The notes beneath the pieces are model-generated. The model saw only the letters and a program-made list of their open reading frames with translations. It did no database searches and had not been told where the DNA came from. Below are positions 2,333 through 42,630 of a stretch of DNA of 64,000 nt, piece by piece. The stretch is from a virus (lineage: Duplodnaviria > Heunggongvirae > Uroviricota > Caudoviricetes > Crassvirales): the IMG/VR virus record IMGVR_UViG_3300040771_000130, positions 38,195-102,194 of that record; one strand, 5' to 3'. The translations under genes and the position numbers were made by a program. How positions within the stretch are numbered: the stretch's first letter is position 1; each line of letters starts with the position of its first letter.

Positions 2333-2333
2333 T

Positions 2334-2801: not shown

Positions 2802-2823
2802 AATTTTACTTATTAAAATAAAG

Positions 2824-2891: not shown

Positions 2892-3105
2892 TCTATTATT
2901 AAAAATACCTTACAGTTTCACTATAAAATTTGTGGTCACTAATCCACATTATACGTTTAAATTAAGGTTTAATTCTGTTACCAGAATACAGCACATGTAT
3001 TACCTTAGCCGACAAGTGTTTTTAACTTATTTTACTTTGAGTCTCTCAAGCATTCTGAGGTATTTTAATTTGTGCTACTACAATGCTTTTTTCACACTTT
3101 GTTAA

Positions 3106-3276
3106 TTAATCTTTATAATCTTCAGGATATAATTCACTCATTTCATCGTGAGCATAATCAAAACCTTCCCAATTATCAACTCCTGCATTTTCTAAACAAA
3201 TTAACCAACTTAATTTCTTTATCATTGAGATATATTCTGATTTTTTGATAGTAATAGTTTCTTCCATTATTGACAT
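3106..3276 (-). CDS. small hypothetical protein (56 aa)
   Basis: Continuous minus-strand frame MSIMEETITIKKSEYISMIKKLSWLICLENAGVDNWEGFDYAHDEMSELYPEDYKD. It overlaps the nrdA stop by 10 nt and is below the ORF-track size cutoff. Confidence 0.25.
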   Translation of the reverse strand: MSIMEETITIKKSEYISMIKKLSWLICLENAGVDNWEGFDYAHDEMSELYPEDYKD

Positions 3277-4889
3277 GTGTTACACTCATTAATTTCCCTT
3301 GCAAACGATTGTGCTGCATTTTGACTAAACTGATAATAAAGTGTTTTAACACCTTCTTGCCAAGCATAAATATATAATTTATTAATTTCCTTAGTTTCTA
3401 CAGAAGGATGTATTGTTAAATTTACACTTTGAGATTGGTCAATAAATTGTTGTCTTTGAGCTGCTTGTAATACAATTTCTTTTGGTGAAATTTCAATAAA
3501 TGATTTAAAAACTTCTTTAGTTGGGAAATCTAGATGTTGAACAGAACCATCATTTTTAAGAATAGATTCCCATATAGAAGGTGTATCTAATTCGTATTTT
3601 TGAAGTTCCGCAATCAATGCTGGGTTTTTATAAACAGTTTTAATTTTAGCTAAATCTTTAATAAAATAATTAGATTTAATTGGTTCAATTCCCATTGAAA
3701 CTTGACCTAAAATAAAACTACTAGATTTTGTAGGTGCAATTGCTAACAATGTAGTATTTGCAAAACCTTCACGTAAAGATGTAATACCTAAATAATCGTG
3801 ACACCATTTAGAAGCATTATCACTTCTTTCGTTTAAAGTTTTAAATATTTTGTAATTAGCTTGCTTAGCTTCTAAACTTTCAAACTCAATAAGTTTTGAC
3901 TGTAAATAACTATGATAACCTAATACACCTAAACCAATAGCTCTATGATCTTTAGCAAATCTCCAAGCACGTTTCATTCCTGGTAATGTTTCAGATTTAG
4001 TAACAAAATCTGTCATTACAGCATTTAAAAATGTAACATATGTTTCAATAGCATCAGTTTTTTCAATTTCATCCCAATAAAGTAAATTAATTGAACCTAA
4101 ACAACATACAAATGAATTATATGTATCGTTAGGTAATGCTATTTCAGAACATAAATTACTATGTGTAATTTCTAATCCTAATTTGTTATACGGACTGTTT
4201 CTATTTACAGTATCTTTAAACATTAAATACGGAAATCCAAATTCACTTCTTCTTTGAATAACTTTTGCCCAAGTAACTCTTTTTTGAGAATTACCAGCAA
4301 TCATTTCTTCCATGAATTTATCAGTAATAGTTACACCATACTGTAAATTTTGAATAGGATTACCTTCAACACCAATGTCTAAAAATTCATTAATATCTGG
4401 ATGTTCAATAGGTAAATAAACGGCACAAGAACCTCTACGAGTTTCTGATTGTTTAAATACATCAACAATACTATCATAAATTTTAGCATAATGAACAGGT
4501 CCATCAGCATAACCACCAATAGATATTTTACTACCTCTTGGTCTAATATTTCCTAAATAGGCAGATGTTCCACCACCATATTTAGACATCATTCCGATTT
4601 CTCTACCTGCATTTAAAATACTATCTGAAGAATCATCTATGTTTGTTCCAAAACACGAAATAGCTAAACCTTTTTCTTTACCAAAATTAACCCATACTGG
4701 TGTTGATAATGAATAATAACCTTTTTTCATGTAAGATTCAAACTTAAAAGCAAAATCTTTAATTCCTAGTATTTTTTCCGCATGATTTGCAATTTCTTTT
4801 ATCCTTTGCTCAGGACTAACTCCTTCATTTAAATAACCTCTAGATAAGAATGTTCTAGAGTCATTGTTCAACCATTTGTAATCACTCAT
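3267..4889 (-). CDS. nrdA: ribonucleotide reductase class I large (alpha) subunit, short form without ATP-cone
   Basis: Active-site 'SNLCSEI' (NxCxE) motif, glycine-rich 'KYGGGTS', C-terminal Tyr-Tyr 'LYYQF' radical-transfer pair and terminal 'CNTCQ' Cys pair. ATGA-coupled to the beta-subunit gene. At 540 aa it lacks the N-terminal allosteric cone. Confidence 0.8.
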   Translation of the reverse strand: MSDYKWLNNDSRTFLSRGYLNEGVSPEQRIKEIANHAEKILGIKDFAFKFESYMKKGYYSLSTPVWVNFGKEKGLAISCFGTNIDDSSDSILNAGREIGMMSKYGGGTSAYLGNIRPRGSKISIGGYADGPVHYAKIYDSIVDVFKQSETRRGSCAVYLPIEHPDINEFLDIGVEGNPIQNLQYGVTITDKFMEEMIAGNSQKRVTWAKVIQRRSEFGFPYLMFKDTVNRNSPYNKLGLEITHSNLCSEIALPNDTYNSFVCCLGSINLLYWDEIEKTDAIETYVTFLNAVMTDFVTKSETLPGMKRAWRFAKDHRAIGLGVLGYHSYLQSKLIEFESLEAKQANYKIFKTLNERSDNASKWCHDYLGITSLREGFANTTLLAIAPTKSSSFILGQVSMGIEPIKSNYFIKDLAKIKTVYKNPALIAELQKYELDTPSIWESILKNDGSVQHLDFPTKEVFKSFIEISPKEIVLQAAQRQQFIDQSQSVNLTIHPSVETKEINKLYIYAWQEGVKTLYYQFSQNAAQSFAREINECNTCQ

Positions 4890-5883: not shown

Positions 5884-6450
5884 TTATCTCCATACTGTCC
5901 CTCTAACTTCTGTTAGTATTAGTACTTCATTATGAGGATCTACATAAGTTCCTAATTCTTGGTTATCTGGTATAATAACTCCTAATTCTTTTTGTAAACT
6001 CTCTTTTAATTTTTGATCTTTGTATAATATTTGTTTTACTTTTAATAGAAAGTTCACACCTGCTGGATTTCCAGAATATACTTCTGCCCAAAATCTTAAT
6101 ATTAATTTTTTAGCATCATCTCCAAATTTGGAATATTGACTACTAAGCAAATAATTATATTCATTAAGATATTCTTCAGGAAATTTAAATACATAAACAG
6201 CTTTATCATTTATATCTATACATTTTACAAACAATTCATTATTTGTAAGTTTATGTTCATATTTAGTAAATTCAGGATTTTTAAAATCAAATTTATGTAA
6301 TATAAATATACAGTTTTCATACTCATTGTTTTCATCAAACAAGTAAGTATTTAATAGATTTGGTAAAAATTTTATGTTTAAATCTAGTATTTCTGACATT
6401 AGCGGTAATAAATACGATTTTGATTTATTGTAGTGAGGTTTATTTATCAT
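5884..6450 (-). CDS. hypothetical protein (start uncertain)
   Basis: 200-aa ORF in the track (5884..6486). The first Met would overlap the upstream endonuclease gene by 47 nt; internal Met at 6450 ('MINKPHY') or ~6399 is more plausible. No motif. Confidence 0.4.
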   Translation of the reverse strand: MINKPHYNKSKSYLLPLMSEILDLNIKFLPNLLNTYLFDENNEYENCIFILHKFDFKNPEFTKYEHKLTNNELFVKCIDINDKAVYVFKFPEEYLNEYNYLLSSQYSKFGDDAKKLILRFWAEVYSGNPAGVNFLLKVKQILYKDQKLKESLQKELGVIIPDNQELGTYVDPHNEVLILTEVRGTVWR

Positions 6451-7159
6451 AATAAAGTTTAAAATTAGATTTATTCTTAACCTCATTTCGTAACCAACTC
6501 CCTAAAGTTTGATATTTAATACTAAATATTTCAGAAACTTCTTTAATAGAATTGTAAATAATTCCACTTTTTGTATCAATTACTTTTTTTTGTAATTTAT
6601 AATTAGGAATTCCTAATTTAGCAATTCTCATTTTTTTTATTGCTTCTTGAGATTTTGGTTTATTGACATTACCTTTACTAATATTATTTCTCCATTCTTC
6701 TGAAATTTTTCTACCTTTTCTAGAATTTGACATTTTTTTACGAGTTTCTTCTGAAGCAACTTTACCTATGTTTTTAAAACCCATAGACTGACGAACTTTT
6801 TCTGAGTGAACTCTACCTGTATTTGCCAAACTTATTTTATTTTTAGTTTCTTGAGATAATTCTCCAGAACTATATGTAGATTGTACTAATGTACAATTCA
6901 AACCATCAGTTACAACATTATAAAAATCTTGATAATATCTTTCTTTATCGTTTAATAATAAAGTATCACATTCTTCTAATATTTCAAATTTGTGATTTTC
7001 TATTCCATATTTATTAAAAGATCGATTTAATTTTATTTGTAATTTACTTTTTTTTATATTTTTATATTCTTTGAATCGTCTAGTAATATCTACAGCTTGT
7101 CCTATATAAATTCGTCCAGGCGGACTTTCTATTTTGTATATACCTGTAATTTTACTCAT
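6440..7159 (-). CDS. GIY-YIG homing endonuclease with NUMOD3 DNA-binding repeats
   Basis: N-terminal 'GIYKIESPPGRIYIGQAVDITRRFKEYKN' is a textbook GIY-(10)-YIG...R...E module. It is followed by three NUMOD3-like repeats ('ETKNKISLANTG', 'EETRKKMSNSRKG', 'EEWRNNISKGN'). Free-standing, beside nrd genes as in T4-like phages. Confidence 0.8.
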   Translation of the reverse strand: MSKITGIYKIESPPGRIYIGQAVDITRRFKEYKNIKKSKLQIKLNRSFNKYGIENHKFEILEECDTLLLNDKERYYQDFYNVVTDGLNCTLVQSTYSSGELSQETKNKISLANTGRVHSEKVRQSMGFKNIGKVASEETRKKMSNSRKGRKISEEWRNNISKGNVNKPKSQEAIKKMRIAKLGIPNYKLQKKVIDTKSGIIYNSIKEVSEIFSIKYQTLGSWLRNEVKNKSNFKLYYDK

Positions 7160-8970: not shown

Positions 8971-9648
8971 TTACCATAAATTATAGTTTTTTATAATTAA
9001 CGTGTCATAAAGATATTCATTACAATCAAGAAAGATATCAGAGTTATTACTTAGTTTAGCATCTGTATTTACAATAATTTTATTATTATCTTTATCAATA
9101 TATTTACATAAATCTAAATGGTCATCTGTTAAAAATAAATAAACAATATTTTTTTTATTATTAATTTCTTTAATAACACATCTAATAAAGTTTTTCCAAA
9201 CATCAGTATAATCTTTATTTTCTTCAACACACATTGACACATTTAAAAATAAGAACCCGTTTTCAGAATAATCATATAAAGAATTATCAAAATCTGATAA
9301 TTTCATTTGATTACCGTAAACACTACTTAAAATACAATCTCTAAATTCTCTTAATTCTATAGGTATGTCAGAGTTTAAGGTGGAGGTTGTTAAAATACCT
9401 CTACCTACACCTGACGATCTTAAATCTTTTACAGGCTTATTGTCAATTATTACAACTTGTAAGTCATCGTAACTACAATCTTTAAAAGGTTGAAACAATC
9501 TTTGTTGTTTTGGATATACTGATTTACCTGATAAATAAACTTGATTTATAAAATTTTCAAGATGTGTAAAATATTCACTTTCATAAAAATCGTAAAGAAT
9601 AGTCGCCCAGTCTAAACCTAATTCTTTTTCTATTTTAAATACACTCAT
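8971..9648 (-). CDS. hypothetical protein
   Basis: 225-aa ORF overlapping the downstream end of the amidoligase gene by 14 nt (coupled). Confidence 0.5.
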   Translation of the reverse strand: MSVFKIEKELGLDWATILYDFYESEYFTHLENFINQVYLSGKSVYPKQQRLFQPFKDCSYDDLQVVIIDNKPVKDLRSSGVGRGILTTSTLNSDIPIELREFRDCILSSVYGNQMKLSDFDNSLYDYSENGFLFLNVSMCVEENKDYTDVWKNFIRCVIKEINNKKNIVYLFLTDDHLDLCKYIDKDNNKIIVNTDAKLSNNSDIFLDCNEYLYDTLIIKNYNLW

Positions 9649-11371
9649 CTTTTTTTTCTTTAATTTCTAAATCAGCTTTTAATGAAGTTGGAGTATAGTA
9701 GTAAGGATCTGAAAAAGTTGAATAATTTTTTAATGAACTTAATGAATCTAACAATTCTTTAGTTATAAATTTAGTATTTTTTACAACATACTGATTTTTT
9801 TTTAAACCATTATTTTCTCTTGGTTTAAGAGGTTGATAATTAATTTTTAATTTTGAAAAATCAATATCTTTTTCCCAAGATATACTATGATCTGTTCTAA
9901 TTTTACTTTCAGTACCTAAAATATTACCATTTAAAGTTTGATATTGAATATTTTCTTTTCTATTGTAAACATAATCTGTAATATAATCTTGAAATAAATC
10001 TAAATCTTGAATTTTATTTTTATAAGTATAAACTTGATTACGTAAAATATCGACTAAAGATAAGTTATTTAAATATCCAGGATTTTGTAAAATATTATCT
10101 TGATTTTTTACTACAAAATTTACAACTAACGCGTTCATCAAAACAAACGGAATTATTTTGTTAGATTCATACGTAGGTGTGTGTATTCTAAATTCAATAG
10201 TTTGTTTATTACCAAACAATAAAGGTATCATATTATATAACAAATATCTTGGTTTTATTAACCATTTTTGATTACAATTTGGATCTGCAGGGTGTGACAC
10301 AACATTATCAAGGTTGTTACCTATTGCTTCAAAACGGTGACCCATTGATAAGTACTCGTAAATAACACCAAAATTGTAATCAATATTAGAACTATCGATA
10401 ACTCTGTCTAATTTTGAGAGTATTTCAAAAGTAGGTAATGGTGCCGAATAGTTTTTATTTTTAATGTTGTAGTTATACTTTTTATATAATGGAAACATTG
10501 CAAACACTTCATCTTGAATCATCATTCCTACCTTAAAAAAAGCAAGCATAAATTCCTTTGTTCTAGGTAAGTTACCTAAGTGTAAATGCATCGAACAAGT
10601 TTTATCATCATATTCTGTACGTTTTTTTAAAACATTAGTAATATCACATATTGCTTGCAAACCTTTTTCACCACCCATTGGTACAGTAACATATTCAATA
10701 CCTGATATAGAACCATCTCGTAATGGAATTAAACCATATTGACTTAGAGTTTTTTTAGAAACAAAACCTTTGGTTGTCTCAAATTCTAAACCAAATGTTA
10801 AATCTTCTAAAATAGGAGCATAACTTTTAATTGATGAAGAGATTATTGGATTGTAATTTAAGTTATAACTTTCCAAATAGCTATCTAGAATTCCTTTTGA
10901 GTCATATGGAAGACTAGTTTTATAACCTTGACTTGGTACAATTATTTTTGAAAATTCTAAAGCTGGTAATTTTGAAATATGGTAATAATTACCATTTGAA
11001 AATCTTTCACGATATACTTTACTATTGTTAAAAATATTATTATCAAATATTAAATATTTTTTTCCATATTTATTTATAACTACAGAATGTATTTCTGAAT
11101 TATTAAAATATCCAAAAATTAATTCATCATCAACAACTTCTACAACTCCTTCAACAATATTAAAATCAAGATGTACATATTTATTTACGCTATGGTTAAA
11201 CACTATTAATTTTGTTTCTTCTCTGTAGTATTTGTCACCAATTAAATAACAATCTCCAGAATTTTTAATTTCTGGATTACCAATCTTATAATATTCTTTA
11301 TTGAATTTTTTACATTGAGAAATAGGTAATTCTTCTCCTTTTATTGTAATTACTTTTTTTTGAGCACTCAT
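9635..11371 (-). CDS. amidoligase_2-domain (glutamine-synthetase-like COOH-NH2 ligase) protein with N-terminal extension
   Basis: Central region has the three hallmark blocks of the 'putative amidoligase enzyme' family: 'LTFGLEFETT' (GvElE), 'LRDGSISGIEYVTVPM' (DGS..G.E.vSpp) and 'CSMHLHLGN' (HvHvG). The ~190-aa N-terminal domain is unassigned. Confidence 0.55.
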   Translation of the reverse strand: MSAQKKVITIKGEELPISQCKKFNKEYYKIGNPEIKNSGDCYLIGDKYYREETKLIVFNHSVNKYVHLDFNIVEGVVEVVDDELIFGYFNNSEIHSVVINKYGKKYLIFDNNIFNNSKVYRERFSNGNYYHISKLPALEFSKIIVPSQGYKTSLPYDSKGILDSYLESYNLNYNPIISSSIKSYAPILEDLTFGLEFETTKGFVSKKTLSQYGLIPLRDGSISGIEYVTVPMGGEKGLQAICDITNVLKKRTEYDDKTCSMHLHLGNLPRTKEFMLAFFKVGMMIQDEVFAMFPLYKKYNYNIKNKNYSAPLPTFEILSKLDRVIDSSNIDYNFGVIYEYLSMGHRFEAIGNNLDNVVSHPADPNCNQKWLIKPRYLLYNMIPLLFGNKQTIEFRIHTPTYESNKIIPFVLMNALVVNFVVKNQDNILQNPGYLNNLSLVDILRNQVYTYKNKIQDLDLFQDYITDYVYNRKENIQYQTLNGNILGTESKIRTDHSISWEKDIDFSKLKINYQPLKPRENNGLKKNQYVVKNTKFITKELLDSLSSLKNYSTFSDPYYYTPTSLKADLEIKEKKDECI

Positions 11372-11374
11372 ATT

Positions 11375-13285
11375 TTATTTTTTAACAGGTTTTTCAATAA
11401 AATCTTTTAATGTGTGATTTATCAAACTTAGTGTATTTAAAGCACTTTTTATATCTTCATTACTTGCCCAATCAGCAAATTCCAAAATAGTTCCATCTAT
11501 ATCTTCAGCATGTTTTTCAAAAGATTCAGCAATTAATTCTTTTACAAATATTTCGTCAGCTTCTAAATCTGTAATTTTACTTTCTAATTTTTCAGAATCT
11601 ACTATATCTTTTTCAATTTTTGAAATAGCTTCAACTGAACTATCAAACAAAACTTTATTAAATTTAGAATTAATTTTAGCTTCTGGTAAAATAATGACAG
11701 ATGTTTCTGATTTTACAGGTTGTAAATCTTCTCTTTTAGACCATTTAACTAATATTCCGTTATTAAAAGAATATGTTTTTTCAAAACCAAGTTCTGTAAA
11801 TGTACCAGTATATCTTTTACCATCTAACATTGCAATACTAGGTGTGTTTTCAGTTGCTAGGTTTATTACAGGATGTTTAGACATATGTGATAATGCTTCA
11901 AAATCAACATATTTAATACCATATTTTAAGTTGTTTTTAAGATTTAAAGCCATTGAATAATCTGCAAAATTTTTTAATAAAACCCCATCTACAAAATAAT
12001 AAAATGGAACTGTTGATAGATCTTCATCAAATATAATGTCACCAACTTGTGCAGATAAATTATAAATAAAATAACCTGTATCGTAGTTAAAAGTTAAACC
12101 TTTAAAACCATTAAACATACTTTGAGCTCCAGCTGTTGCTAACGATACAAATTTAAAACCATAGTTTTTAATATATACAAATACTCCTGAAATTAAAGCA
12201 CCTCTACTCCAGTATCTTAAACTTTTATTGTAAACTTTATCTTTATAAAATGAAATTGGGTTAACAGTTAAATCATTGTGTAAATTAGTTAATACAGAAA
12301 CTGTTGGGGAAGTGTTAACTGAAGGTTTTGTATCATATATATCATAATAATCATCAGAAAAAGTTTTTTTATAATTTTGACTATATACAATTGCTTCGTT
12401 TTGACCTGCGTTCCTCCGACTTATCTTATGTTTTTCAGCATTTGCAAAATCACCATCAGTAATAATATATACTGTGTTATAGTCAATTTGTGTTTTATCT
12501 TTAGCTGTAGCACCTAAAACCATTAATCCATTTTTTAGTGATGAAAAAAACATGCTGTTTTCATTTTTACAATAAACATTCATAGGTCTCTCTTCTGTTT
12601 CAATAGAAACTGTTGTACCTTGAGTATGTTTAGATGCTCCAGACCATAAATATAATTTGTTTGGTTCATCAATCCATGTCCAAGCTAGAGCTGCTGCTCC
12701 AACATATTCACTTAAAACTTTAAAATTTTTAGTCTTGTAAAGTATTTCACCTAATATTTCACTATCAATTTTAGTTCTTGTTATTTCATATGGATGACCA
12801 CTAGGATAGTGTTCAGTATATGTAACTTTAGTTTCAATACCATATTTTTTAGCTAAATCTTCATGATTTCTTAAAGTACCATTATGACAAAATATCATAC
12901 CGTAACTATCATTAGCTTTATTAGCACCAAATCCAAATGGATGAGCATTATGTTCATTTATTGCCATACCTTGACTAGGTTGTCTTGTATGACCAATCAT
13001 AATAGGTGTCTGTATAGGTTTAATTTCTCTATCAACAATAAAATCTGTATATAGTTTGTCAAAACCGATACCATATTGTACATCACCATCCCAAGATAAA
13101 CCACAAGACATTTTACCACGTTCAATATTATAAATTCCTAAAATATGAACACCATTAACATCTAAGTTTTCAGGTGTATTTGTGGCTTGACCAAAAATAC
13201 CACAGTTTAAAGAATTAGATTTGTAACCAAATATAAAATTACTAATGTATTGTAATAATGTTAATATTAAAATTATTTTTACCAT
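11375..13285 (-). CDS. class-II (Ntn-type) glutamine amidotransferase domain protein
   Basis: A hydrophobic leader is followed by 'NCGIFG', the N-terminal nucleophile Cys signature (CGI[FV]G) of GAT-II/Ntn amidotransferases (PurF/AsnB/GlmS type). Remainder (~600 aa) unassigned. Confidence 0.55.
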   Translation of the reverse strand: MVKIILILTLLQYISNFIFGYKSNSLNCGIFGQATNTPENLDVNGVHILGIYNIERGKMSCGLSWDGDVQYGIGFDKLYTDFIVDREIKPIQTPIMIGHTRQPSQGMAINEHNAHPFGFGANKANDSYGMIFCHNGTLRNHEDLAKKYGIETKVTYTEHYPSGHPYEITRTKIDSEILGEILYKTKNFKVLSEYVGAAALAWTWIDEPNKLYLWSGASKHTQGTTVSIETEERPMNVYCKNENSMFFSSLKNGLMVLGATAKDKTQIDYNTVYIITDGDFANAEKHKISRRNAGQNEAIVYSQNYKKTFSDDYYDIYDTKPSVNTSPTVSVLTNLHNDLTVNPISFYKDKVYNKSLRYWSRGALISGVFVYIKNYGFKFVSLATAGAQSMFNGFKGLTFNYDTGYFIYNLSAQVGDIIFDEDLSTVPFYYFVDGVLLKNFADYSMALNLKNNLKYGIKYVDFEALSHMSKHPVINLATENTPSIAMLDGKRYTGTFTELGFEKTYSFNNGILVKWSKREDLQPVKSETSVIILPEAKINSKFNKVLFDSSVEAISKIEKDIVDSEKLESKITDLEADEIFVKELIAESFEKHAEDIDGTILEFADWASNEDIKSALNTLSLINHTLKDFIEKPVKK

Positions 13286-13292
13286 TTTTTTA

Positions 13293-14105
13293 TTATTTAT
13301 TTAAAATTTTTACTTGTGAATTAGTTATTACTTTAATTTTGTTAAGTAATTCTTGAGCCAATTGTTTATTGTTAGTATTAATTGCTTCTACAATATAATC
13401 ACCTAATTCTTTAACTTCATCAATTTTGTTTGTATTTAACAAATCAATTGCTTTTAATGTAGTATTCCAAGCCCATTTTAATGATTCATCAGATCTAATC
13501 CAAAAGTTTGAAAGACTACGATATTCAATACCATAATCTCTAAATCTAAAACAACCTGCTTTACCATAAAGTTTTTTACGTTCTGTATCAGGATCTAACA
13601 ATATAGATTCTAGTCCTATAGTCGCATCCATAGCTTTAACCATGTCAATTTGTTGTTCTTGTGTAGGATTATCCCAACCAATACTAATATGACCCCCACA
13701 CACTCTTAAATTAGTAGTGCTCAAATCTGCAGGTGTGTTCATACCTTCTTTCCATACATCAAAATCTGGTTCACAACCTGCAAGCCGCGCAATATCATTG
13801 TCTAACTCAGATTCATCTAATGTAGCAGAAGCATTTATTGCTAATGTACAACCCATTCCAGAAACTAGTACTTCTAAATAATCTTTTACAAAATTATTAT
13901 GAAATACCCAATCACTTACATTCAAACAGGGTGGAATATTGTATTCAATAGCAACATTGTCTTCTTGAATAAAGTGACCATCATCTGAAATCGGTTGGGG
14001 TTCCGATTTAGAACCCCCTATTTTACCAATTGCTGAAATAATTTTACCGTCTTTTTGTAGAAATAATTCTGGATCTGTACCTAAGCTAATATTTTGAATT
14101 TTCAT
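13293..14105 (-). CDS. second amidoligase-like (GCS2/glutamine-synthetase-like) protein
   Basis: N-terminal 'SLGTDPELFL' (GvE.E-like) and a later 'CGGHISIGW' (H.H.G-like) block in the same order as carboxylate-amine ligases. Weaker match than 9635..11371. Confidence 0.35.
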   Translation of the reverse strand: MKIQNISLGTDPELFLQKDGKIISAIGKIGGSKSEPQPISDDGHFIQEDNVAIEYNIPPCLNVSDWVFHNNFVKDYLEVLVSGMGCTLAINASATLDESELDNDIARLAGCEPDFDVWKEGMNTPADLSTTNLRVCGGHISIGWDNPTQEQQIDMVKAMDATIGLESILLDPDTERKKLYGKAGCFRFRDYGIEYRSLSNFWIRSDESLKWAWNTTLKAIDLLNTNKIDEVKELGDYIVEAINTNNKQLAQELLNKIKVITNSQVKILNK

Positions 14106-14111
14106 ATATTT

Positions 14112-14960
14112 TTATTTATTTTTTAAATATCTACTAATTAAATTTAAACACATCATAGACGTATTTTTTTCACAATAACTCCATTCAGGATGTCCTTGAA
14201 TACATAAAGCCTTTGTATTTTTATAATACACTATTTCAGGTTCAAGAAAATCAATTGGTAAATCAACTTCTTCATTATCACCGTTTAAATATGTAGTACT
14301 TTGAAAAAATTCTGAATGAGCAATTAATTCATAGTCATTTTTAGGTAAATTAAATGGAAATAACATTTGATGATGTGAGGAAGTCATTACATATTTACTG
14401 CCTGTACTGTTTATAATAATACTATGATCTCTACCATGACCTTCAACGTGTTGAATTAGTTTACCACCACTTAATGCTGTAAGCATTTGGGAACCTCGAC
14501 ATATTCCTAAGAATAACACTTTACCATAAAAATAGTCATATACTTCACTTTCAATAGTGTCTCTATAACCATTTATACTAGTATATTTACCAACTTTTTC
14601 ATTATAAAATTCGGGACTAATATCTTCACCACCTGTAAATAAAACTAAATCTATTTTTACCTCAGTTGGTAATTCTCTAAAATTGTGAACTGTAACTTCA
14701 AATTTATTTTCTAAAAATTTAACATATTCTAAAGATGAACTTCTATCAGCAATTATTATATTTAATTTTTCTTTAATAATTACAAATGATTCATCTAAAT
14801 ATTGAAACACTGTATTTATTTTATCTTCCATCAAGTCACCTTCAATTTCATCATACATTTTAGCGGTTATACAGCCATTTAAAAGTGATTTTACTATTGA
14901 TCTATTACTGTCTTTAGTTATACTGTAATTGTTTAGTATTTCTATTAATTTTGGATTCAT
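14112..14960 (-). CDS. peptidase C26 / class-I glutamine amidotransferase-like gamma-glutamyl hydrolase
   Basis: Catalytic nucleophile elbow 'LGICRGSQMLTALSGGKLIQH' matches the G-x-C-x-G-x-Q motif of the C26/PuuD family; downstream His also present. Confidence 0.6.
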   Translation of the reverse strand: MNPKLIEILNNYSITKDSNRSIVKSLLNGCITAKMYDEIEGDLMEDKINTVFQYLDESFVIIKEKLNIIIADRSSSLEYVKFLENKFEVTVHNFRELPTEVKIDLVLFTGGEDISPEFYNEKVGKYTSINGYRDTIESEVYDYFYGKVLFLGICRGSQMLTALSGGKLIQHVEGHGRDHSIIINSTGSKYVMTSSHHQMLFPFNLPKNDYELIAHSEFFQSTTYLNGDNEEVDLPIDFLEPEIVYYKNTKALCIQGHPEWSYCEKNTSMMCLNLISRYLKNK

Positions 14961-15823
14961 TTGTTATTGTTTTTATCAATTAATAATTGTGGTAAAATTT
15001 CTGCATATTTTTTACCTGTAATTTCACCAAAACTTGGTGCAGAACAGCTTTCAAAAATAATCCATTCAGGATTTTCTCTTTCAACACCGTCTTTAGCTCC
15101 CTGAACACCTACGTCAAATGCGCAAATGTCTAAACCTAAGGCATCTTTAGCTTTAATACAGTCTGCAACAATGTCATCCCAATTTCTAGGTTTTTTAAAA
15201 GACGGGTTTTCTTCTAATATCCAATTACAAACATCATCGTGACGTTGCCAAGTATTTTCTGGAGCATCATTTCTAACTAATTTTCTACAAGAATAAAAAC
15301 AACCAAATTTAGTTACGTGTAATCTATATTCTCTAGTCATTTTTACAAACTGTTCAAATATATAACTATTAAGATTTTTATTTGGTAACCAAGCTTCCAA
15401 TTCTTCTTTATTATTAAATTTAGTATTACCAGTACCTCTTGAACCAAAATGAGATTTAGCTACAATGGGATATAAAAATTTAGATAGAGGATCATTACTA
15501 GGCTCTTCATTATTAAATTTACAACTTAATAAAATACCTTTAAATTCTACATCTTCTCCATAATATAAAGTCCACCAATCAGCAGTTTTAACACTAGCTT
15601 GAGTAAACCTCTCTTTCATTAGCAATTTAGAAGCAGAATTTTTAACAGCTTGTATTGTATTAATTTCAACTCTATCATCCGATTCTGTTGACGATCCAAG
15701 TCTTATAACAGATCTAAACGGTAATAAAGGTAATGTTTTATTATTAGCTCTCAACACTGAGTGCGAAGGATGACGTGATAAAATCAGGGGTCTAAATAAC
15801 TTATATTTTTTTAATTTATTCAT
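14957..15823 (-). CDS. ATP-grasp ligase (RimK-like)
   Basis: ATP-grasp landmarks in order: flexible loop 'IVAKSHFGSRGTGN', 'EYRLHV', 'GLDICAFDV' and 'ESCSAPSFGEI' (E.N..P-like Mg/ATP site). Confidence 0.5.
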   Translation of the reverse strand: MNKLKKYKLFRPLILSRHPSHSVLRANNKTLPLLPFRSVIRLGSSTESDDRVEINTIQAVKNSASKLLMKERFTQASVKTADWWTLYYGEDVEFKGILLSCKFNNEEPSNDPLSKFLYPIVAKSHFGSRGTGNTKFNNKEELEAWLPNKNLNSYIFEQFVKMTREYRLHVTKFGCFYSCRKLVRNDAPENTWQRHDDVCNWILEENPSFKKPRNWDDIVADCIKAKDALGLDICAFDVGVQGAKDGVERENPEWIIFESCSAPSFGEITGKKYAEILPQLLIDKNNNK

Positions 15824-16511
15824 TGTTTAAATTTAATAAATGGTTAATTAAAAATATTGAAGCGGGATCTCTACTGTCTTCAACGTGATGTTGTGTCATG
15901 TGACATGGATAAAATGGAAATGTAGTAGCCATTTCAATTTCAAAATCTTTATCGTGTTTTGCAAGAATTGTAACCATGTGAGGTTTAGTTTCTTCATTTA
16001 TAGTTTGATGATGCCTACTGTTAATTTTGTATTCACCTGGTTTATGTTGTGTAATTTCAGAAAATCCTGGAACAATTTCTTGGTTTTCAAATGTAATACC
16101 ATGCATTAGTTTACCACCATCATGTGAAGGATTTGTTTCATGCGACATATGTTGATTAAGTTTACCACCTAATGTAACATACATTGATTGCATACCACGG
16201 CAAGTACAAAAGATTGGAATATTTGCAGCCATATATTTAGGTAACAAAATTCTGTCAAATCTTTCTTTTTGCATACAAGGTGTACCTGTAAATATATGAG
16301 TATCTTCTTCAGGTGTTAAATATCTATAAGGATCTACATCTTGACCACCTGGCATTACTAACAAATCTACATCTCTTACGTGATTTTCAAATGGTGAAAT
16401 TAAAGATACTTCTCCAAATTGTTGCCAAAAGAATAAATATGATTTAGAAATTCCAAAACTATTTTCACCCGTGAAATGTCCAACTATTGCTATTTTTTTT
16501 ATATTATTCAT
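15816..16511 (-). CDS. peptidase C26 / GATase1-like gamma-glutamyl hydrolase (paralog)
   Basis: 'FCTCRGMQSMYVTLGGKLNQHM' shares the same Cys-elbow motif as 14112..14960; several conserved His. Confidence 0.55.
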   Translation of the reverse strand: MNNIKKIAIVGHFTGENSFGISKSYLFFWQQFGEVSLISPFENHVRDVDLLVMPGGQDVDPYRYLTPEEDTHIFTGTPCMQKERFDRILLPKYMAANIPIFCTCRGMQSMYVTLGGKLNQHMSHETNPSHDGGKLMHGITFENQEIVPGFSEITQHKPGEYKINSRHHQTINEETKPHMVTILAKHDKDFEIEMATTFPFYPCHMTQHHVEDSRDPASIFLINHLLNLNNE

Positions 16512-16525
16512 TATTTTTATTTATT

Positions 16526-17524
16526 TTATAAATTGTTAAAAAACCAAGCTCTAGATTTATTTGCAATTAAACTTGCTACTTTTTTCCACTCAATTTGATT
16601 TTTAATTAACACGTCAGATTCTTCTTTTAATATATCATTACAAATGTATTTTAAAAATTCACATGTTAATTTTTGATTAACTTCTACATTATTATCTTTA
16701 ATATTTTGTAAAGCTTGATTTAATCTATTTTCTGTTACTGAATATTCTACAAATTCATTTAAAGAATTTAATTCTTCTTCATTTACAGAGTTTAGAACTT
16801 TAACTTTTGAAACAGAATGTTTCTCACCTTTAGATTTAAATTTTAAATCTGGATAATCTATTGAAGTAAATACAATTCCTTCACCAATTCCAGAAATATT
16901 AAAATATTTACCTACAGGACATTCTTCTTCAACTTTAATAGTTAAATCGATTAATTTATTTTGAATTAATTCTGGATTTTCAAAATCAATTTCAACATTA
17001 TAAGTTGGAAATTGTTCAATAATATAAACATTTTGTTTATTAAATAATTCTGAATTAAAATTTAAATTTTCTAAATTAATCCATTTATCATCAATTTTAA
17101 TTCCAAAAATTACAAATATTTTAGGTAATTCTGTTAAAGCAACTCCTTTTTGAATATTACTTCCACACCATTCTCCATAAATAGCAATATATTCTTTAAA
17201 TTTAAATTTATCAAATATTTCACTAAAATCAACGTTACTCATATTTAACATAAATCCAGCATTATCTTGCTGTAAAGATAATTCTCTTTCTCTGGATTGA
17301 TAAATAATGAAGTTATTAATATATTTTACTATTCCAGCATTTGTACCATGTAATTTAACAGTTCCTTTAAATTGTAATTTTGGATAATTTGTTAAATGTT
17401 GATAAATTGGATTTCCTTGCTCATCATTTCCTTGATAATCATGATCAATTTTAACTTTTTTAATAATATTTCTATATTGTTCTATACTTGGATATTTTTT
17501 CATATTTTTAATTATTTGTAGCAC
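16526..17524 (-). CDS. RNA ligase, Rnl2-like (T4 gp24.1 family)
   Basis: Nucleotidyltransferase motif I 'KLHGTNAG' (KxHGxN as in T4 Rnl2 'KIHGTN'), motif IV 'EGIVF' and motif V 'KFKSKGEK' in correct order and spacing. Confidence 0.65.
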   Translation of the reverse strand: MLQIIKNMKKYPSIEQYRNIIKKVKIDHDYQGNDEQGNPIYQHLTNYPKLQFKGTVKLHGTNAGIVKYINNFIIYQSRERELSLQQDNAGFMLNMSNVDFSEIFDKFKFKEYIAIYGEWCGSNIQKGVALTELPKIFVIFGIKIDDKWINLENLNFNSELFNKQNVYIIEQFPTYNVEIDFENPELIQNKLIDLTIKVEEECPVGKYFNISGIGEGIVFTSIDYPDLKFKSKGEKHSVSKVKVLNSVNEEELNSLNEFVEYSVTENRLNQALQNIKDNNVEVNQKLTCEFLKYICNDILKEESDVLIKNQIEWKKVASLIANKSRAWFFNNL

Positions 17525-17918
17525 TTAAATAAAATTTTTCTGTATTCTTAAAATCTACCCAGTCACCTGATTCAACAATAGAATCTTTTAACAATTCATT
17601 TACATAAATATATGTAAAAGCTTTACCCCAAGGTGTATCAATTTCAATTCTATCATAAAATGTAGGTTTTCTATCAGCACTATAACCTTCTAAAGTATTT
17701 AAATTATTTAATACGTTTTCAGTTACTTCATAAACTTCCATTACAACAGAAGTGTTACCGTTTAATTTTAATCCTGGATACGCACTTAAACTATGTAATG
17801 TATATTCTGGTTCTGTTGAAAATATACCTTTATAATCTGAATTAGATAAATAGTAATTATGATTACCCATTGTTTTACGAAGACTGCCATATACAGCCAC
17901 TAAATATTTTTTACGCAT
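17508..17918 (-). CDS. gamma-glutamyl cyclotransferase (GGCT/AIG2-like)
   Basis: N-terminal 'YLVAVYGSLRK' is the YGSL/YGTL signature of the GGCT/AIG2 fold; size 136 aa fits. Confidence 0.6.
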   Translation of the reverse strand: MRKKYLVAVYGSLRKTMGNHNYYLSNSDYKGIFSTEPEYTLHSLSAYPGLKLNGNTSVVMEVYEVTENVLNNLNTLEGYSADRKPTFYDRIEIDTPWGKAFTYIYVNELLKDSIVESGDWVDFKNTEKFYLSATNN

Positions 17919-17919
17919 A

Positions 17920-18351
17920 TTATTTTATTAATTTTAATCCTTCTTGTAGTCCTTCTTCTAAAACTTTTTCGTAAGACTCATCTGTAAGGTTTCCTTTTGT
18001 GTTTATGTATCTTGAAAACTTATCCCTTGATAGAGACCAACCTTTGGTAGGAGGATACAGTACTGTATAGGAGTATTTTGCATTTACCTCGGTATGTGTA
18101 GTTACAAAAACTTTAATGTTATGAATTTCTCTTAACCATTTTTGAAGCAGGGTTTGAGTTGGTCGTGAATAAAATTTAACAGTTGAATTTTTTCCAAAGT
18201 TGTTAAAATCAAATTCACTTAATGATTTGCTATATTGTTTTATTTCTGTTTTACAAGAAATTGTAGTAGCTATTGAGCAAGATACTTCGCAGTCAAACTC
18301 TTTTTCTTTAGCTAATTTAGCTGTTTCAAATGTTATTAATTGTTCTTTCAT
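17920..18351 (-). CDS. hypothetical protein
   Basis: 143-aa ORF between the two GGCT-like genes; Cys-containing N-terminus; no motif. Confidence 0.5.
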   Translation of the reverse strand: MKEQLITFETAKLAKEKEFDCEVSCSIATTISCKTEIKQYSKSLSEFDFNNFGKNSTVKFYSRPTQTLLQKWLREIHNIKVFVTTHTEVNAKYSYTVLYPPTKGWSLSRDKFSRYINTKGNLTDESYEKVLEEGLQEGLKLIK

Positions 18352-18353
18352 TT

Positions 18354-18845
18354 TTAAACTTTTAAACTGTTAATATGCTCAATCCAATCACCATCAATTA
18401 TTAATTCTTTTGAATCTTGTTCAGTAATTGATATATAAAGTGTAATATTACCAAATGGTGAAACTAAAGTTTTTTTTGTATATTCTTGAGGATAATCTTC
18501 AAATTCTGCATAATAACAGTATTCTTTTTCAATTTTAATTAAAGAAGATTCATTAACTTCCCACACTTCAATTTTAATGGAAGAATTACCATTTTCTTGA
18601 ATAACACAATTGTTATCATTTTCTACATAATACATGTTATAAATAGGTTCTGTTGAAAATGTACCTATTAATTTACATGTAGGTTCTGGTAACAAACTAT
18701 TTAATATGCCATCTTTTCTAAAATGATCGTAAATACCTACTAAATGTTTTTTTTCCATTTTTGATTGTTTTGTTAATTCTCTGCGTTCTTTTTTTAACTC
18801 CGCTTTTGTTTTATAACCTGGAGATCTTTTATTAGTTTTTCTCAT
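18354..18845 (-). CDS. GGCT/AIG2-like paralog (catalytic motif degenerate) with basic N-terminal tail
   Basis: Aligns with 17508..17918: 'HLVGIYDHFRKDG' versus 'YLVAVYGSLRKTM', and C-terminal 'DGDWIEH' versus 'SGDWVDF'. YGSL is replaced by YDHF. Confidence 0.45.
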   Translation of the reverse strand: MRKTNKRSPGYKTKAELKKERRELTKQSKMEKKHLVGIYDHFRKDGILNSLLPEPTCKLIGTFSTEPIYNMYYVENDNNCVIQENGNSSIKIEVWEVNESSLIKIEKEYCYYAEFEDYPQEYTKKTLVSPFGNITLYISITEQDSKELIIDGDWIEHINSLKV

Positions 18846-41406: not shown

Positions 41407-41422
41407 AACAATTTAATTTTGG

Positions 41423-41557: not shown

Positions 41558-41567
41558 AATATATAAT

Positions 41568-42624: not shown

Positions 42625-42630
42625 TATAGA

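What the first reader, a model, noticed from the sequence alone, without database searches (positions are those of the whole stretch)
8971..18845. ~10 kb phage-encoded amidoligase / GAT-II / ATP-grasp / peptidase-C26 / GGCT cluster
Nine consecutive co-directional, translationally coupled genes encode two glutamine-synthetase-like amidoligases (GvElE / DGS..G.E / H.H.G blocks), an Ntn-type class-II amidotransferase (NCGIFG), a RimK-like ATP-grasp ligase, two peptidase C26 gamma-glutamyl hydrolases (G-x-C-R-G-x-Q), and two GGCT/AIG2 proteins (one with YGSL, one degenerate YDHF). This is the enzymology of making, trimming and cyclising gamma-glutamyl/peptide amide bonds. Comparative genomics has predicted phage 'peptide-tagging' systems with amidoligase + GAT-II + GGCT components, but this arrangement (2 amidoligases + ATP-grasp + 2 C26 + 2 GGCT + RNA ligase) is richer than any I can name, and no substrate is known. 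It could modify a virion or host protein, or make a small gamma-glutamyl metabolite. The hydrophobic leader before the Ntn Cys suggests autoprocessing.
Basis: partly seen in the sequence, partly recalled or inferred. Interest (0 to 1): 0.85.

Follow-up and report, generated by a model that had tools for sequence, protein, structure and literature searches.

The report
Conserved phage gamma-glutamyl amide-ligase module
A marine crAss-like phage carries an enlarged copy of a gene module seen in many phages and predicted in 2009 but apparently never tested; its enzymes make and break glutamine/gamma-glutamyl amide bonds on a target that is still unknown.

Summary
Window 8971-18845 (minus strand) has 11 tightly packed ORFs. 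The other two are a catalytically dead UNG homolog and an unknown 143-aa ORF.

It is not unique. The window is a crAss-like phage related to Cellulophaga phage phi14:2. All 48 related loci bracketed by primase and RusA carry both ligases, GAT-II, ATP-grasp and a GGCT. 47 have one C26, 33 have two, and 14 surveyed loci share the window's gene order. The RNA ligase occurs only in this contig, so it is an insertion.

The core module is already in GenBank phages (LUZ24/PaP3-like, phiEco32-like, CW02, cr108_1). The literature calls it a "putative peptidoglycan modification module", and I found no experiment.

Three gene pairs survive rearrangement: C26+COOH-NH2 ligase, GAT-II+Amidoligase_2, ATP-grasp+GGCT/C26.

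I favour a transient gamma-glutamylation pathway acting on an amine substrate, at modest confidence. The enzymology is well supported; the target is not established.

The parts
18354..18845 (-). GGCT paralog (163 aa), probably catalytically dead
   Evidence: phrog_2520 2.4e-8. Pfam AH_C scores 20.5 bits, below threshold. 32% identical to the neighbouring GGCT, E 2e-15. In its family YGSL becomes Y-D-(D/H)-(Y/F), and the catalytic Glu is Tyr in 12 of 18 members and Glu in only 1 of 18. Present in 19 of 48 crAss-like loci.
17920..18351 (-). Unknown 143-aa ORF (phrog_12005); accessory, probably not part of the core
   Evidence: phrog_12005 1.1e-24, function unknown. No Pfam hit. Found in only 10 of 48 related loci and at varying positions.
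17508..17918 (-). Active-type gamma-glutamyl(amine) cyclotransferase (GGACT/AIG2-like), 136 aa
   Evidence: PF06094 6.5e-18; phrog_2520 1.9e-23. Best PDB sequence hit is E. coli YtfP (1xhs), 2e-14. Y10-G-S-L13 and Glu77 are invariant in 55 of 55 family members.
16526..17524 (-). Rnl2-type RNA ligase; an insertion, not a module component
   Evidence: PF09414 1.8e-11; phrog_548 1e-55; KLHGTN motif. Found inside the module only in this contig, 1 of 91 loci.
15816..16511 (-). Peptidase C26 / class-I GATase-fold hydrolase 'C26b' (231 aa)
   Evidence: PF07722 2.4e-23. PDB sequence hits: 3fij 2e-12 and SpuA 7d4r 2.5e-3. The Cys104/His209/Glu211 triad is conserved in 34-35 of 35 members. Present in 33 of 48 crAss-like loci and adjacent to the ATP-grasp in 36 of 40.
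14957..15823 (-). RimK-type ATP-grasp ligase (288 aa)
   Evidence: phrog_2599 1.2e-22; NCBIfam rimK_fam 1.9e-5, below the cut-off. Family profile against PDB: alpha-L-glutamate ligase 7qyr 2e-7 over the full length, LysX-type 3vpb 3e-7, RimK 5zct/4iwx 1e-4, plus cyanophycin synthetase and Ddl. Present in 48 of 48.
14112..14960 (-). Peptidase C26 / class-I GATase-fold hydrolase 'C26a' (282 aa), partner of the COOH-NH2 ligase
   Evidence: PF07722 5.7e-13. Best NCBIfam hit is gamma-glutamyl-CDP-amidate hydrolase, 1e-7. The Cys154/His257/Glu259 triad is conserved in 65-66 of 66 members. Adjacent to the COOH-NH2 ligase in 72 of 74 loci, across several gene orders.
13293..14105 (-). phiEco32-type COOH-NH2 ligase type 2 (270 aa)
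   Evidence: PF14395 28.7 bits; phrog_3815 7.4e-71. Invariant residues include D11, E13, Q47, D49, E54, C111, R134, H139, D171, D173, R176, E194 and R196. The family is essentially confined to phages: 34 hits in 185,579 species genomes, nearly all on phage-sized MAG contigs.
11375..13285 (-). Ntn class-II glutamine amidotransferase-fold protein (636 aa): 27-aa hydrophobic leader, GAT-II domain, orphan C-terminal domain, helical hairpin
9635..11371 (-). Amidoligase_2 (glutamine-synthetase-fold carboxylate-amine ligase), 578 aa, with an uncharacterised N-terminal beta-rich region
8971..9648 (-). Degenerate UNG-family protein (225 aa); a syntenic neighbour whose link to the module is unproven
   Evidence: NCBIfam UNG models score 61-76 bits, below their cut-offs. 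27% identical to phi14:2 g042, annotated 'UDG'. The catalytic Asp of GQDPY and the His of HPSPLS are missing. Overlaps the amidoligase stop by 14 nt. Follows the amidoligase in 38 of 48 crAss-like loci and in cr108_1.

Best explanation
This is the crAss-like-phage version of a conserved, phage-restricted enzyme module. It is expressed with the replication genes.

I propose that it runs a put-on/take-off chemistry centred on the gamma-carboxamide of glutamate/glutamine, in the cytoplasm of the infected cell.

Proposed steps:
1. The two glutamine-synthetase-fold ligases (COOH-NH2 ligase type 2 and Amidoligase_2) use ATP to form an acyl-phosphate, most likely gamma-glutamyl phosphate, and join it to a primary amine. 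This gives gamma-glutamyl-X intermediates.
2. Each ligase works with its own thiol amidohydrolase. C26a pairs with the COOH-NH2 ligase, and the Ntn GAT-II pairs with Amidoligase_2. The hydrolase either cleaves the gamma-glutamyl-N bond or passes the nitrogen on.
3. The RimK-type ATP-grasp adds a further glutamate or amino acid.
4. The active GGCT removes a gamma-glutamyl group that has a free alpha-amine, releasing it as 5-oxoproline and freeing the amine. In this clade a second C26 contributes.

The gamma-glutamyl group is therefore a transient carrier or protecting handle on an amine-bearing substrate, rather than the end product.

The GAT-II is probably made as a precursor whose 27-residue hydrophobic leader must be removed to expose Cys28. 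The second GGCT is a non-catalytic paralog.

What is shown: the family and fold assignments, intact catalytic residues, conserved gene pairs, and restriction to phages.

What is inferred: the identity of the carboxylate (Glu), the order of steps, and the substrate X. My ranking for X is a small cytoplasmic amine such as a polyamine, or the free amine of a cell-wall precursor, ahead of a protein lysine.
For: Family and fold:
- All nine family assignments are confirmed.

Enzymes that act on gamma-glutamyl amides:
- The GGCT, both C26 proteins and the GAT-II fold all act on gamma-glutamyl or glutamine amides.
- The catalytic residues are conserved: GGCT Glu77 and YGSL in 55 of 55; C26 triads in at least 34 of 35 and 65 of 66; GAT-II C28, R101, N135 and G136 invariant.
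- The C26 proteins score higher on Peptidase_C26 than on GATase. Their nearest named relatives hydrolyse N-substituted glutamines: gamma-glutamyl-CDP-amidate hydrolase, PuuD and SpuA.

Gene pairs that persist across at least four different gene orders:
- C26a with COOH-NH2 ligase, 72 of 74.
- GAT-II with Amidoligase_2, 77 of 77.
- ATP-grasp with C26b, 36 of 40.
- ATP-grasp with GGCT, 41 of 66.

From established knowledge, each pair has a small-molecule precedent in which gamma-glutamylation is a transient handle on an amine: PuuA/PuuD and SpuI/SpuA; EgtA/EgtC and GmaS/N-methylglutamate synthase; BtrJ/BtrG.

Context:
- All module proteins are soluble apart from the GAT-II leader, which fits ATP-dependent cytoplasmic chemistry.
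- The module sits between primase and RusA, inside the replication block.
Against: - No substrate was identified. Nothing in the sequence says which carboxylate or amine is used.
- The COOH-NH2 ligase fold was not verified structurally here, and its profile finds nothing in the PDB.
- The Amidoligase_2 model is low confidence (pLDDT 55).
- The hydrolase partners could instead be glutaminase subunits feeding ammonia to the ligases. That would make the products stable carboxamides rather than transient intermediates.
- LUZ24-like phages, phiEco32-like phages and phi14:2 lack the C26 partner, so it is not obligatory.
- The literature favours a stable peptidoglycan modification.
- The loci counted are phylogenetically related, so the adjacency counts overstate the number of independent observations.
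Confidence: 0.4

Rival explanations
1. Stable peptidoglycan modification, the standing literature hypothesis (Iyer 2009; Hardies 2013). The three ligases build unusual peptide or amide links on the stem peptide of cytoplasmic or lipid-linked precursors, and the amidotransferases amidate its free carboxylates. The wall becomes refractory to superinfecting phages or is pre-weakened for lysis.
For: - This is stated as the accepted reading in PMC6256558, PMC10580990, PMC11318856 and PMC11945000.
- Known wall amidation uses both glutaminase classes (established knowledge: GatD/MurT and AsnB/LtsA). That parallels the two hydrolase-ligase pairs.
- The only membrane-like segment in the module is the GAT-II leader. 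That would suit action on lipid II.
- The hosts of cultured carriers all have mDAP-type walls.
Against: - I found no experiment in any paper.
- No Mur-ligase, UDP-sugar-binding or wall-binding domain was detected.
- The hypothesis gives no role to a core GGCT. The stem-peptide D-Glu has a blocked alpha-amine, so it cannot cyclise.
- It does not explain up to three gamma-glutamyl-cleaving enzymes.
- Amidoligase + GAT sets are reported in viruses assigned to wall-less or non-murein archaea. This is weak evidence, because the host calls are themselves predictions.
Confidence: 0.2
2. Protein modification. The ligases and the RimK-type enzyme glutamylate a host or virion protein on a lysine side chain or at a C-terminus, in a pupylation-like or S6-like manner. 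The hydrolases and GGCT trim or erase the mark.
For: - The ATP-grasp is closest over its full length to alpha-L-glutamate ligases and RimK.
- From established knowledge, the natural substrate of GGACT enzymes is epsilon-(gamma-glutamyl)-lysine.
Against: - There is no conserved small ORF for a tag inside or beside the module. Intergenic gaps are at most 14 nt, and the only extra ORF occurs in 10 of 48 loci.
- All scores against RimK and PuuD equivalog models are far below their cut-offs.
- No target-binding domain was recognised.
- The N-terminal region of the amidoligase and the C-terminal domain of GAT-II remain unassigned.
Confidence: 0.15
3. General nitrogen or glutamine auxiliary metabolism. 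The genes simply raise glutamine synthesis and turnover to feed nucleotide synthesis during replication, with no dedicated product.
For: - The module sits among nucleotide-metabolism genes, including RNR and an NAD-salvage-like pair.
- One paper interprets a similar gene set as AMGs for nitrogen metabolism.
Against: - The COOH-NH2 ligase family is essentially absent from cellular genomes.
- All members are highly diverged from housekeeping GS, GCL, PurF and GlmS. Scores are far below equivalog cut-offs.
- The GAT-II carries an orphan domain instead of a known synthase domain.
- Strict conservation of gene pairs points to a dedicated pathway.
Confidence: 0.08
4. Nucleic-acid hypermodification. 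The module attaches or processes an amino-acid-derived group on a DNA base or nucleotide (or on a tRNA). The dead UNG-like protein would act as a base-flipping or recognition subunit.
For: - Lee et al. (PMC8989533) report uncharacterised amidoligase and amidotransferase genes co-located with thymidine-hypermodification genes in viral contigs.
- The module is flanked by primase and by a catalytically dead UNG homolog that overlaps the amidoligase gene. This holds in 38 of 48 crAss-like loci and in cr108_1.
- A GGCT lies next to the primase in distant phage lineages as well.
Against: - No 5-hmU kinase, aGPT-Pplase, dUMP/dCMP hydroxymethylase or TET/JBP was found among the window ORFs scanned.
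- The UNG-like gene is absent from the non-crAss versions of the module, 2 of 42. From my own knowledge, a UDG gene is a usual member of the crAss-like replication block.
- I know of no report of modified DNA in LUZ24-like or phiEco32-like phages. This comes from memory and was not searched exhaustively.
Confidence: 0.07

Closest known systems
Cellulophaga phage phi14:2 g036-g044 (Crassvirales, Steigviridae, Asinivirinae)
   Same: It is the closest cultured relative, with DNA polymerase 63% identical. The block is syntenic: primase, GGCT, ATP-grasp, COOH-NH2 ligase, GAT-II, amidoligase, UDG-like, RusA. The GAT-II has the same hydrophobic leader and C-terminal domain.
   Different: phi14:2 has no C26 gene, only one GGCT, and no RNA ligase. 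It is the only one of 48 bracketed crAss-like loci without a C26.
Gut crAss-like phage cr108_1 (NC_055878, Pipoluvirus)
   Same: Gene order is primase, ATP-grasp, class-I glutamine amidotransferase, COOH-NH2 ligase, GAT-II, amidoligase, UDG, endonuclease.
   Different: It has one class-I GATase rather than two. It has two extra hypothetical genes, no annotated GGCT, and a shorter GAT-II of 492 aa.
'Putative peptidoglycan modification module' of LUZ24/PaP3-like, phiEco32-like, 7-11-like, PA11, phiRIO-1, phiM6 and CW02 phages (Iyer et al. 2009; Hardies et al. 2013)
   Same: The five core families are the same: COOH-NH2 ligase type 2, Amidoligase_2, GAT-II, ATP-grasp and GGCT. All lie in the early or replication region next to a primase or primase-helicase. 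CW02 also has a C26 gene.
   Different: Gene order differs, and the module lies upstream rather than downstream of the primase. Most versions lack C26 genes. The GAT-II and amidoligase are shorter or carry different extra domains. Protein identities are about 29-40%. No version has had its function tested.
Bacterial gamma-glutamyl amine pathways (PuuA/PuuD, SpuI/SpuA, GmaS + N-methylglutamate synthase, EgtA/EgtC, BtrJ/BtrG)
   Same: The fold pairings match: a GS-fold ligase with a C26 or GAT-II amidohydrolase, and an ATP-grasp with a GGCT. The gamma-glutamyl group acts as a transient handle on an amine (fold evidence; the pathway logic is from established knowledge).
   Different: Only the fold or family level is shared. 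Scores against the specific equivalog models are far below cut-off. No oxidase, dehydrogenase, methyltransferase or carrier protein from those pathways is present.
Pupylation (PafA/Dop/Pup)
   Different: There is no Pup-like tag gene and no proteasome or ATPase partner. No sequence-level similarity was detected.

Membership tests
Conserved phage amidoligase module (Iyer 2009; 'putative peptidoglycan modification module', Hardies 2013) | phiEco32-type COOH-NH2 ligase type 2 (PF14395) | tested here: met
   28.7 bits against a threshold of 25; phrog_3815 7.4e-71; catalytic-type residues conserved.
Conserved phage amidoligase module (Iyer 2009; 'putative peptidoglycan modification module', Hardies 2013) | Amidoligase_2 (PF12224) adjacent to an Ntn GAT-II protein | tested here: met
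Conserved phage amidoligase module (Iyer 2009; 'putative peptidoglycan modification module', Hardies 2013) | ATP-grasp ligase and GGCT/AIG2 gene in the same operon | tested here: met
   The ATP-grasp profile hits alpha-L-glutamate ligase and RimK in the PDB. GGACT 6.5e-18 with an intact YGSL motif and catalytic Glu.
Conserved phage amidoligase module (Iyer 2009; 'putative peptidoglycan modification module', Hardies 2013) | Located in the early or replication block of a virulent phage, next to the primase | tested here: met
   The flanking genes are primase, Sak4, DnaB-like helicase, DNA polymerase, RusA, an exonuclease and RNR. The context is the same in phi14:2, EP335, CW02 and UFV-P2.
Conserved phage amidoligase module (Iyer 2009; 'putative peptidoglycan modification module', Hardies 2013) | Actually modifies peptidoglycan | not testable with these tools
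   I found no experiment in the literature. No wall-related domain was detected.
Pupylation-like peptide tagging | A gene-encoded small tag protein ending in Gln/Glu, linked to the ligase | tested here: not met
   There is no room for a small ORF, as gaps are at most 14 nt. No small ORF is conserved across 48 loci.
Pupylation-like peptide tagging | PafA/Dop-type GS-fold ligase | tested here: inconclusive
Glutathione / gamma-glutamyl cycle | GCL-type ligase + GshB-type ATP-grasp + GGCT + 5-oxoprolinase | tested here: inconclusive
   A GCL-fold ligase and a GGCT are present. The ATP-grasp matches RimK and LysX better than glutathione synthetase. No 5-oxoprolinase family was found among the ORFs scanned.
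Puu/Spu gamma-glutamyl-polyamine catabolism | PuuD/SpuA-type C26 hydrolase at equivalog level, plus an oxidase and a dehydrogenase | tested here: not met
   The PuuD model scores 18.7 bits against a cut-off of 266, and SpuA gives 2.5e-3. No oxidase or dehydrogenase is present in the operon.
RimK (ribosomal protein S6 glutamate ligase) | Equivalog-level match to RimK | tested here: not met
   rimK_fam scores 24.1 bits against a cut-off of 143.4. The match is at family level only.
Thymidine hypermodification clusters (5-HMUDK / aGPT-Pplase) | 5-hmU DNA kinase, glycosylase-like pyrophosphorylase and a hydroxymethylase | tested here: not met
   None of these appeared among the window ORFs scanned with Pfam or PHROGs. 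Only 64 kb of the 101.6-kb contig was visible.
Uracil-DNA glycosylase family 1 (for ORF 8971-9648) | Catalytic Asp in GQDPY and His in HPSPLS | tested here: not met
   The homology is clear at 76 bits, but both catalytic residues are replaced in the window protein and its relatives.

The most novel reading that the evidence does not exclude
The module, together with the catalytically dead UNG-fold protein that overlaps the amidoligase gene and with the adjacent primase, could be a DNA (or nucleotide) hypermodification pathway. In this reading an amine or amino-acid group is carried as a gamma-glutamyl amide, delivered to a flipped-out pyrimidine, and then unmasked by the C26 and GGCT enzymes. 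That would be a chemistry and enzyme set unlike any characterised phage DNA modification. My evidence does not exclude it. It rests only on gene adjacency in crAss-like phages and on a literature remark that amidoligases co-occur with thymidine-hypermodification genes.
Probability: 0.07. Interest if true: 0.85.

Novelty: new variant of a known kind. Interest (0 to 1): 0.45.

Why it matters
- This phage-restricted module was predicted in 2009. It occurs in Pseudomonas, Escherichia, Salmonella and Vibrio phages, marine phages and crAss-like phages, and I found no experimental test of its function.
- The window does not reveal a new kind of system. It does show that the fullest form of the module is standard equipment in a clade of about 100-kb marine crAss-like phages. 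That form has two ligase-hydrolase pairs, an ATP-grasp, an active GGCT and a dead one.
- The survey gives three conserved enzyme pairs that can be tested directly in culturable carriers such as LUZ24, PaP3, phiEco32 and phi14:2.
- Identifying the substrate would settle whether phages remodel the cell wall, tag proteins with glutamate, manipulate polyamines, or make a new metabolite during infection.

Tried and rejected
1. Megablast of the 9.9-kb region against GenBank phages found no match.
2. Structure prediction of the amidoligase gave a poor model, pLDDT 55, because the available homologs are 57-90% identical. The N-terminal 200 residues therefore stay unassigned.
4. Sequence and profile searches of both GS-type ligases against the PDB found nothing. 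A profile-profile comparison of the two ligases matched only around the shared H-x-H-x-G motif, at probability 5%.
5. The promoter and terminator scan was no better than shuffled sequence.
6. The RNA ligase as a module component was rejected. It is present in 1 of 91 loci.
7. The second GGCT as an active enzyme was rejected, because the catalytic Glu is lost in its family.
8. A gene-encoded peptide tag was rejected, because there is no conserved small ORF.
9. A cellular origin or host-like AMG was rejected. The COOH-NH2 ligase family is almost absent from 185,579 species genomes outside phage-like contigs.
10. One literature search (LUZ24 + metabolomics) returned nothing relevant.
11. The two key papers, Iyer 2009 (PMC3268129) and Hardies 2013 (PMC3754069), are not held. 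They are cited only through papers that quote them.

Full report
**What is in the sequence**

The window is AT-rich, about 25% G+C. The finding lies in a long run of minus-strand genes. Between 8971 and 18845 there are 11 ORFs. Their junctions are overlaps of 4-17 nt or gaps of 1-14 nt.

| Coordinates | Assignment | Evidence |
|---|---|---|
| 9635-11371 | Amidoligase_2 | 23.1 bits vs threshold 22; phrog_2443 1.6e-27 |
| 11375-13285 | Class-II (Ntn) amidotransferase | GATase_6 29.1 bits |
| 13293-14105 | phiEco32-type COOH-NH2 ligase | 28.7 bits; phrog_3815 7e-71 |
| 14112-14960 | Peptidase_C26 | 5.7e-13 |
| 15816-16511 | Peptidase_C26 | 2.4e-23 |
| 14957-15823 | ATP-grasp | no Pfam hit; phrog_2599 1e-22; RimK family 1.9e-5 |
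| 16526-17524 | Rnl2-type RNA ligase | PF09414 1.8e-11 |
| 17508-17918 | GGACT | 6.5e-18 |
| 18354-18845 | GGCT paralog | phrog_2520 2.4e-8 |

The latter is a clear but sub-threshold homolog of family-1 uracil-DNA glycosylase, at 76 bits. It has lost the catalytic Asp of GQDPY and the His of HPSPLS.

**Checks on fold and active sites**

- *GAT-II leader.* Cys28 is preceded by a 27-residue hydrophobic helix. Its sequence is conserved in several relatives, including phi14:2. Other homologs begin directly at MCGI. That supports a cleaved pro-peptide. It is also the only membrane-like segment in the module.
- *GAT-II C-terminus.* After a disordered linker comes a well-predicted alpha/beta domain (about 340-520) and a long helical hairpin. 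The domain has no PDB counterpart. In 1.84 billion representative proteins it occurs only in this same architecture, in 116 clusters.
- *COOH-NH2 ligase.* It has a comparable set of invariant acidic, His and Arg residues. Its fold was not checked here, and it finds nothing in the PDB.
- *ATP-grasp.* The family profile reaches alpha-L-glutamate ligase (2e-7, full length), LysX-type enzymes, cyanophycin synthetase, RimK (1e-4) and D-Ala-D-Ala ligases.
- *C26 families.* Both keep the Cys-His-Glu triad.
- *GGCT and its paralog.* The 136-aa GGCT family keeps YGSL and the catalytic Glu in 55 of 55 sequences. In the family of the 163-aa paralog, YGSL is replaced, and the Glu is Tyr in 12 of 18 members and Glu in only one. 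The paralog is therefore most likely a non-catalytic subunit.

**What the element is**

The window is a crAss-like phage.

- Its DNA polymerase is 63% identical to that of Cellulophaga phage phi14:2 (Crassvirales, Steigviridae).
- The source contig is 101.6 kb.
- The neighbouring genes are primase, Sak4, a DnaB-like helicase, RusA, an exonuclease, RNR, and an adjacent Prs-like and NAMPT-like pair.
- phi14:2 has the syntenic block primase, GGCT, ATP-grasp, COOH-NH2 ligase, GAT-II, amidoligase, UDG-like, RusA.

**Comparative survey**

I collected 91 loci and scored them with family HMMs built from the window proteins. The loci came from IMG/VR, from look-ups of homologs and from annotated phages.

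Among 48 loci with the crAss-like bracket primase...RusA:

| Component | Loci (of 48) |
|---|---|
| Both ligases, GAT-II, ATP-grasp and at least one GGCT | 48 |
| C26 next to the COOH-NH2 ligase | 47 (phi14:2 is the exception) |
| Second C26 | 33 |
| Two GGCT-type genes | 17 |
| UNG-like gene | 38 |
| 143-aa ORF | 10 |

Fourteen of the surveyed loci have exactly the window's order. The RNA ligase is found inside the module in no locus except the window's own contig, so it is an insertion.

Homing endonucleases split the C26 or ligase genes in several relatives. A peptide deformylase or a GNAT-like ORF is occasionally inserted.

Loci with other architectures still keep certain neighbours. These orders include C26, COOH-NH2 ligase, ATP-grasp, GGCT, GAT-II, Amidoligase_2; and C26, COOH-NH2 ligase, Amidoligase_2, GAT-II, ATP-grasp; and others.

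| Pair | Adjacent / loci with both |
|---|---|
| C26a with COOH-NH2 ligase | 72 / 74 |
| GAT-II with Amidoligase_2 | 77 / 77 |
| ATP-grasp with C26b | 36 / 40 |
| ATP-grasp with GGCT | 41 / 66 |

The loci are related to each other, so these are not independent counts. Survival of the pairs across at least four gene orders is the informative point.

A scan of one genome for each of 185,579 species found only 34 relatives of the COOH-NH2 ligase. Nearly all lie on phage-sized MAG contigs. The family is in effect phage-restricted.

**What is already known**

- The same core is annotated in LUZ24-like phages (PMC3890496), phiEco32-like EP335, the 7-11-like Cronobacter phage, Salinivibrio phage CW02, which also has a C26 gene, and the human-gut crAss-like phage cr108_1, which has a class-I amidotransferase beside the COOH-NH2 ligase.
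- The COOH-NH2 ligase alone is found in 306 GenBank phage records.
- Papers trace the prediction to Iyer et al. 2009 and to Hardies et al. 2013. They call it a putative peptidoglycan modification module, which would make three unusual peptide links and either exclude superinfecting phages or weaken the wall (PMC6256558; PMC11945000; PMC10580990; PMC11318856).
[quoted passage not shown] I found no experiment.
- Lee et al. note uncharacterised amidoligase and amidotransferase genes beside thymidine-hypermodification genes in some viral contigs (PMC8989533).
- The two source papers themselves are not held.

**How it most likely works**

Every characterised relative of the GS fold activates a glutamate gamma-carboxylate as an acyl-phosphate and joins it to ammonia or an amine (established knowledge; fold evidence).

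GGCT enzymes release an amine from an L-gamma-glutamyl-amine as 5-oxoproline. C26 enzymes and Ntn GAT-II domains hydrolyse glutamine or N-substituted glutamines.

The C26 proteins here score higher on Peptidase_C26 than on GATase. Their nearest named relatives are gamma-glutamyl-CDP-amidate hydrolase, PuuD and SpuA. The GAT-II fold matches the gamma-glutamyl amidohydrolase EgtC almost as well as it matches PurF.

So three ligation enzymes are combined with three or four enzymes that cleave gamma-glutamyl amides, arranged as conserved pairs. Each pair has a small-molecule precedent in which gamma-glutamylation is a temporary handle on an amine:
- PuuA/PuuD and SpuI/SpuA for polyamines.
- EgtA/EgtC and gamma-glutamylmethylamide synthetase with N-methylglutamate synthase.
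- The ATP-grasp BtrJ with the GGCT-type BtrG in butirosin synthesis (established knowledge).

I therefore favour a put-on/take-off gamma-glutamyl pathway acting on an amine-bearing cytoplasmic substrate, at about 0.4. The substrate remains unknown.

**Rival explanations**

- *Stable peptidoglycan modification (0.2).* This is the literature hypothesis. It is favoured by the parallel with two-class wall amidation and by the membrane-like GAT-II leader. It gives no role to a core GGCT and is untested.
- *Protein glutamylation or tagging (0.15).* It is favoured by the PafA/Dop and RimK resemblance. It is weakened by the absence of any conserved tag gene.
- *Plain nitrogen metabolism (0.08).* It is contradicted by phage restriction and by the extreme divergence from housekeeping enzymes.
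- *Nucleic-acid hypermodification (0.07).* It is suggested only by adjacency to the primase and to the dead UNG-like protein. No kinase, pyrophosphorylase or hydroxymethylase was found in the window.

**Verdict**

The claim of exceptional richness is not. This is the ordinary, fullest form of a known and widely distributed but apparently uncharacterised phage module, as it occurs in a clade of marine crAss-like phages. It carries an incidental RNA ligase insertion.

I rate it a new variant of a known kind, with moderate interest. The open question of what this module does is real. Culturable carriers are better places to answer it than this metagenomic contig.

Noticed in passing
window 8971-9648 (-): A family-1 uracil-DNA glycosylase homolog (76 bits, below cut-off) has lost the catalytic Asp (GQDPY) and His (HPSPLS). 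Five relatives have the same losses. It overlaps the amidoligase stop codon and follows the amidoligase in 38 of 48 crAss-like loci and in gut phage cr108_1.
   Followed up: partly
window 16526-17524 (-): An Rnl2-type RNA ligase (KLHGTN motif) is inserted between the GGCT and C26b genes. It is present at this place in no other locus of the 91 surveyed.
   Followed up: yes
window 18354-18845 (-): A GGCT paralog whose family has replaced YGSL and has Tyr in place of the catalytic Glu in 12 of 18 members. It is probably a pseudo-enzyme or regulatory subunit. Some relatives have longer versions of 200-280 aa.
   Followed up: yes
window 26773-29258 (-): A ribose-phosphate pyrophosphokinase-like gene (phrog_619 1.5e-65) lies next to a nicotinamide phosphoribosyltransferase-like gene (phrog_448 2.4e-193). 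From memory, this resembles the two-gene NAD+ reconstitution pathway (NARP1) that phages use against NAD-depleting defences. I did not test this.
   Followed up: no
window 11375-13285 (-), residues 1-27 and 335-530: The GAT-II has a hydrophobic 27-residue leader, conserved in part of the family and absent in others. Its C-terminal alpha/beta domain has no PDB match and occurs only in this architecture (116 clusters in 1.84 billion representatives).
   Followed up: yes
window 6440-7159 (-); L006, L008, L014, L022, L030, L046, L048: A GIY-YIG/NUMOD homing endonuclease lies between the RNR and exonuclease genes in the window. In relatives, LAGLIDADG or GIY-YIG endonuclease genes interrupt the C26b and COOH-NH2 ligase genes, leaving them as two ORFs. 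These may be introns or inteins.
   Followed up: partly
L006 10821-11342; L046 10804-11325; L019 5754-6239, L023, L030: Occasional extra genes occur inside the module in relatives. A peptide deformylase sits between the COOH-NH2 ligase and GAT-II, and a GNAT-like ORF sits near the primase. A recurrent 120-170-aa ORF lies between the ATP-grasp and C26a in 14 loci.
   Followed up: no
window 2334-2801 (-) and 31593-32405 (-): A circularly permuted YpsA SLOG-domain protein (PF12694, 3e-22) and an SPFH/Band-7 protein (PF01145, 2.7e-9) are encoded in the replication-side arm.
   Followed up: no
window 42018-42114 (-) and about 40000-44000: A single tRNA-Ser(TGA) gene lies at the point where gene orientation and GC skew switch from the minus-strand replication arm to the plus-strand arm.
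   Followed up: no
L002 (phi14:2) 1637-4082 versus window 29471-31501: The DNA polymerase gene is annotated as joined from two pieces in phi14:2. In the window it is a single uninterrupted 676-aa ORF.
   Followed up: no
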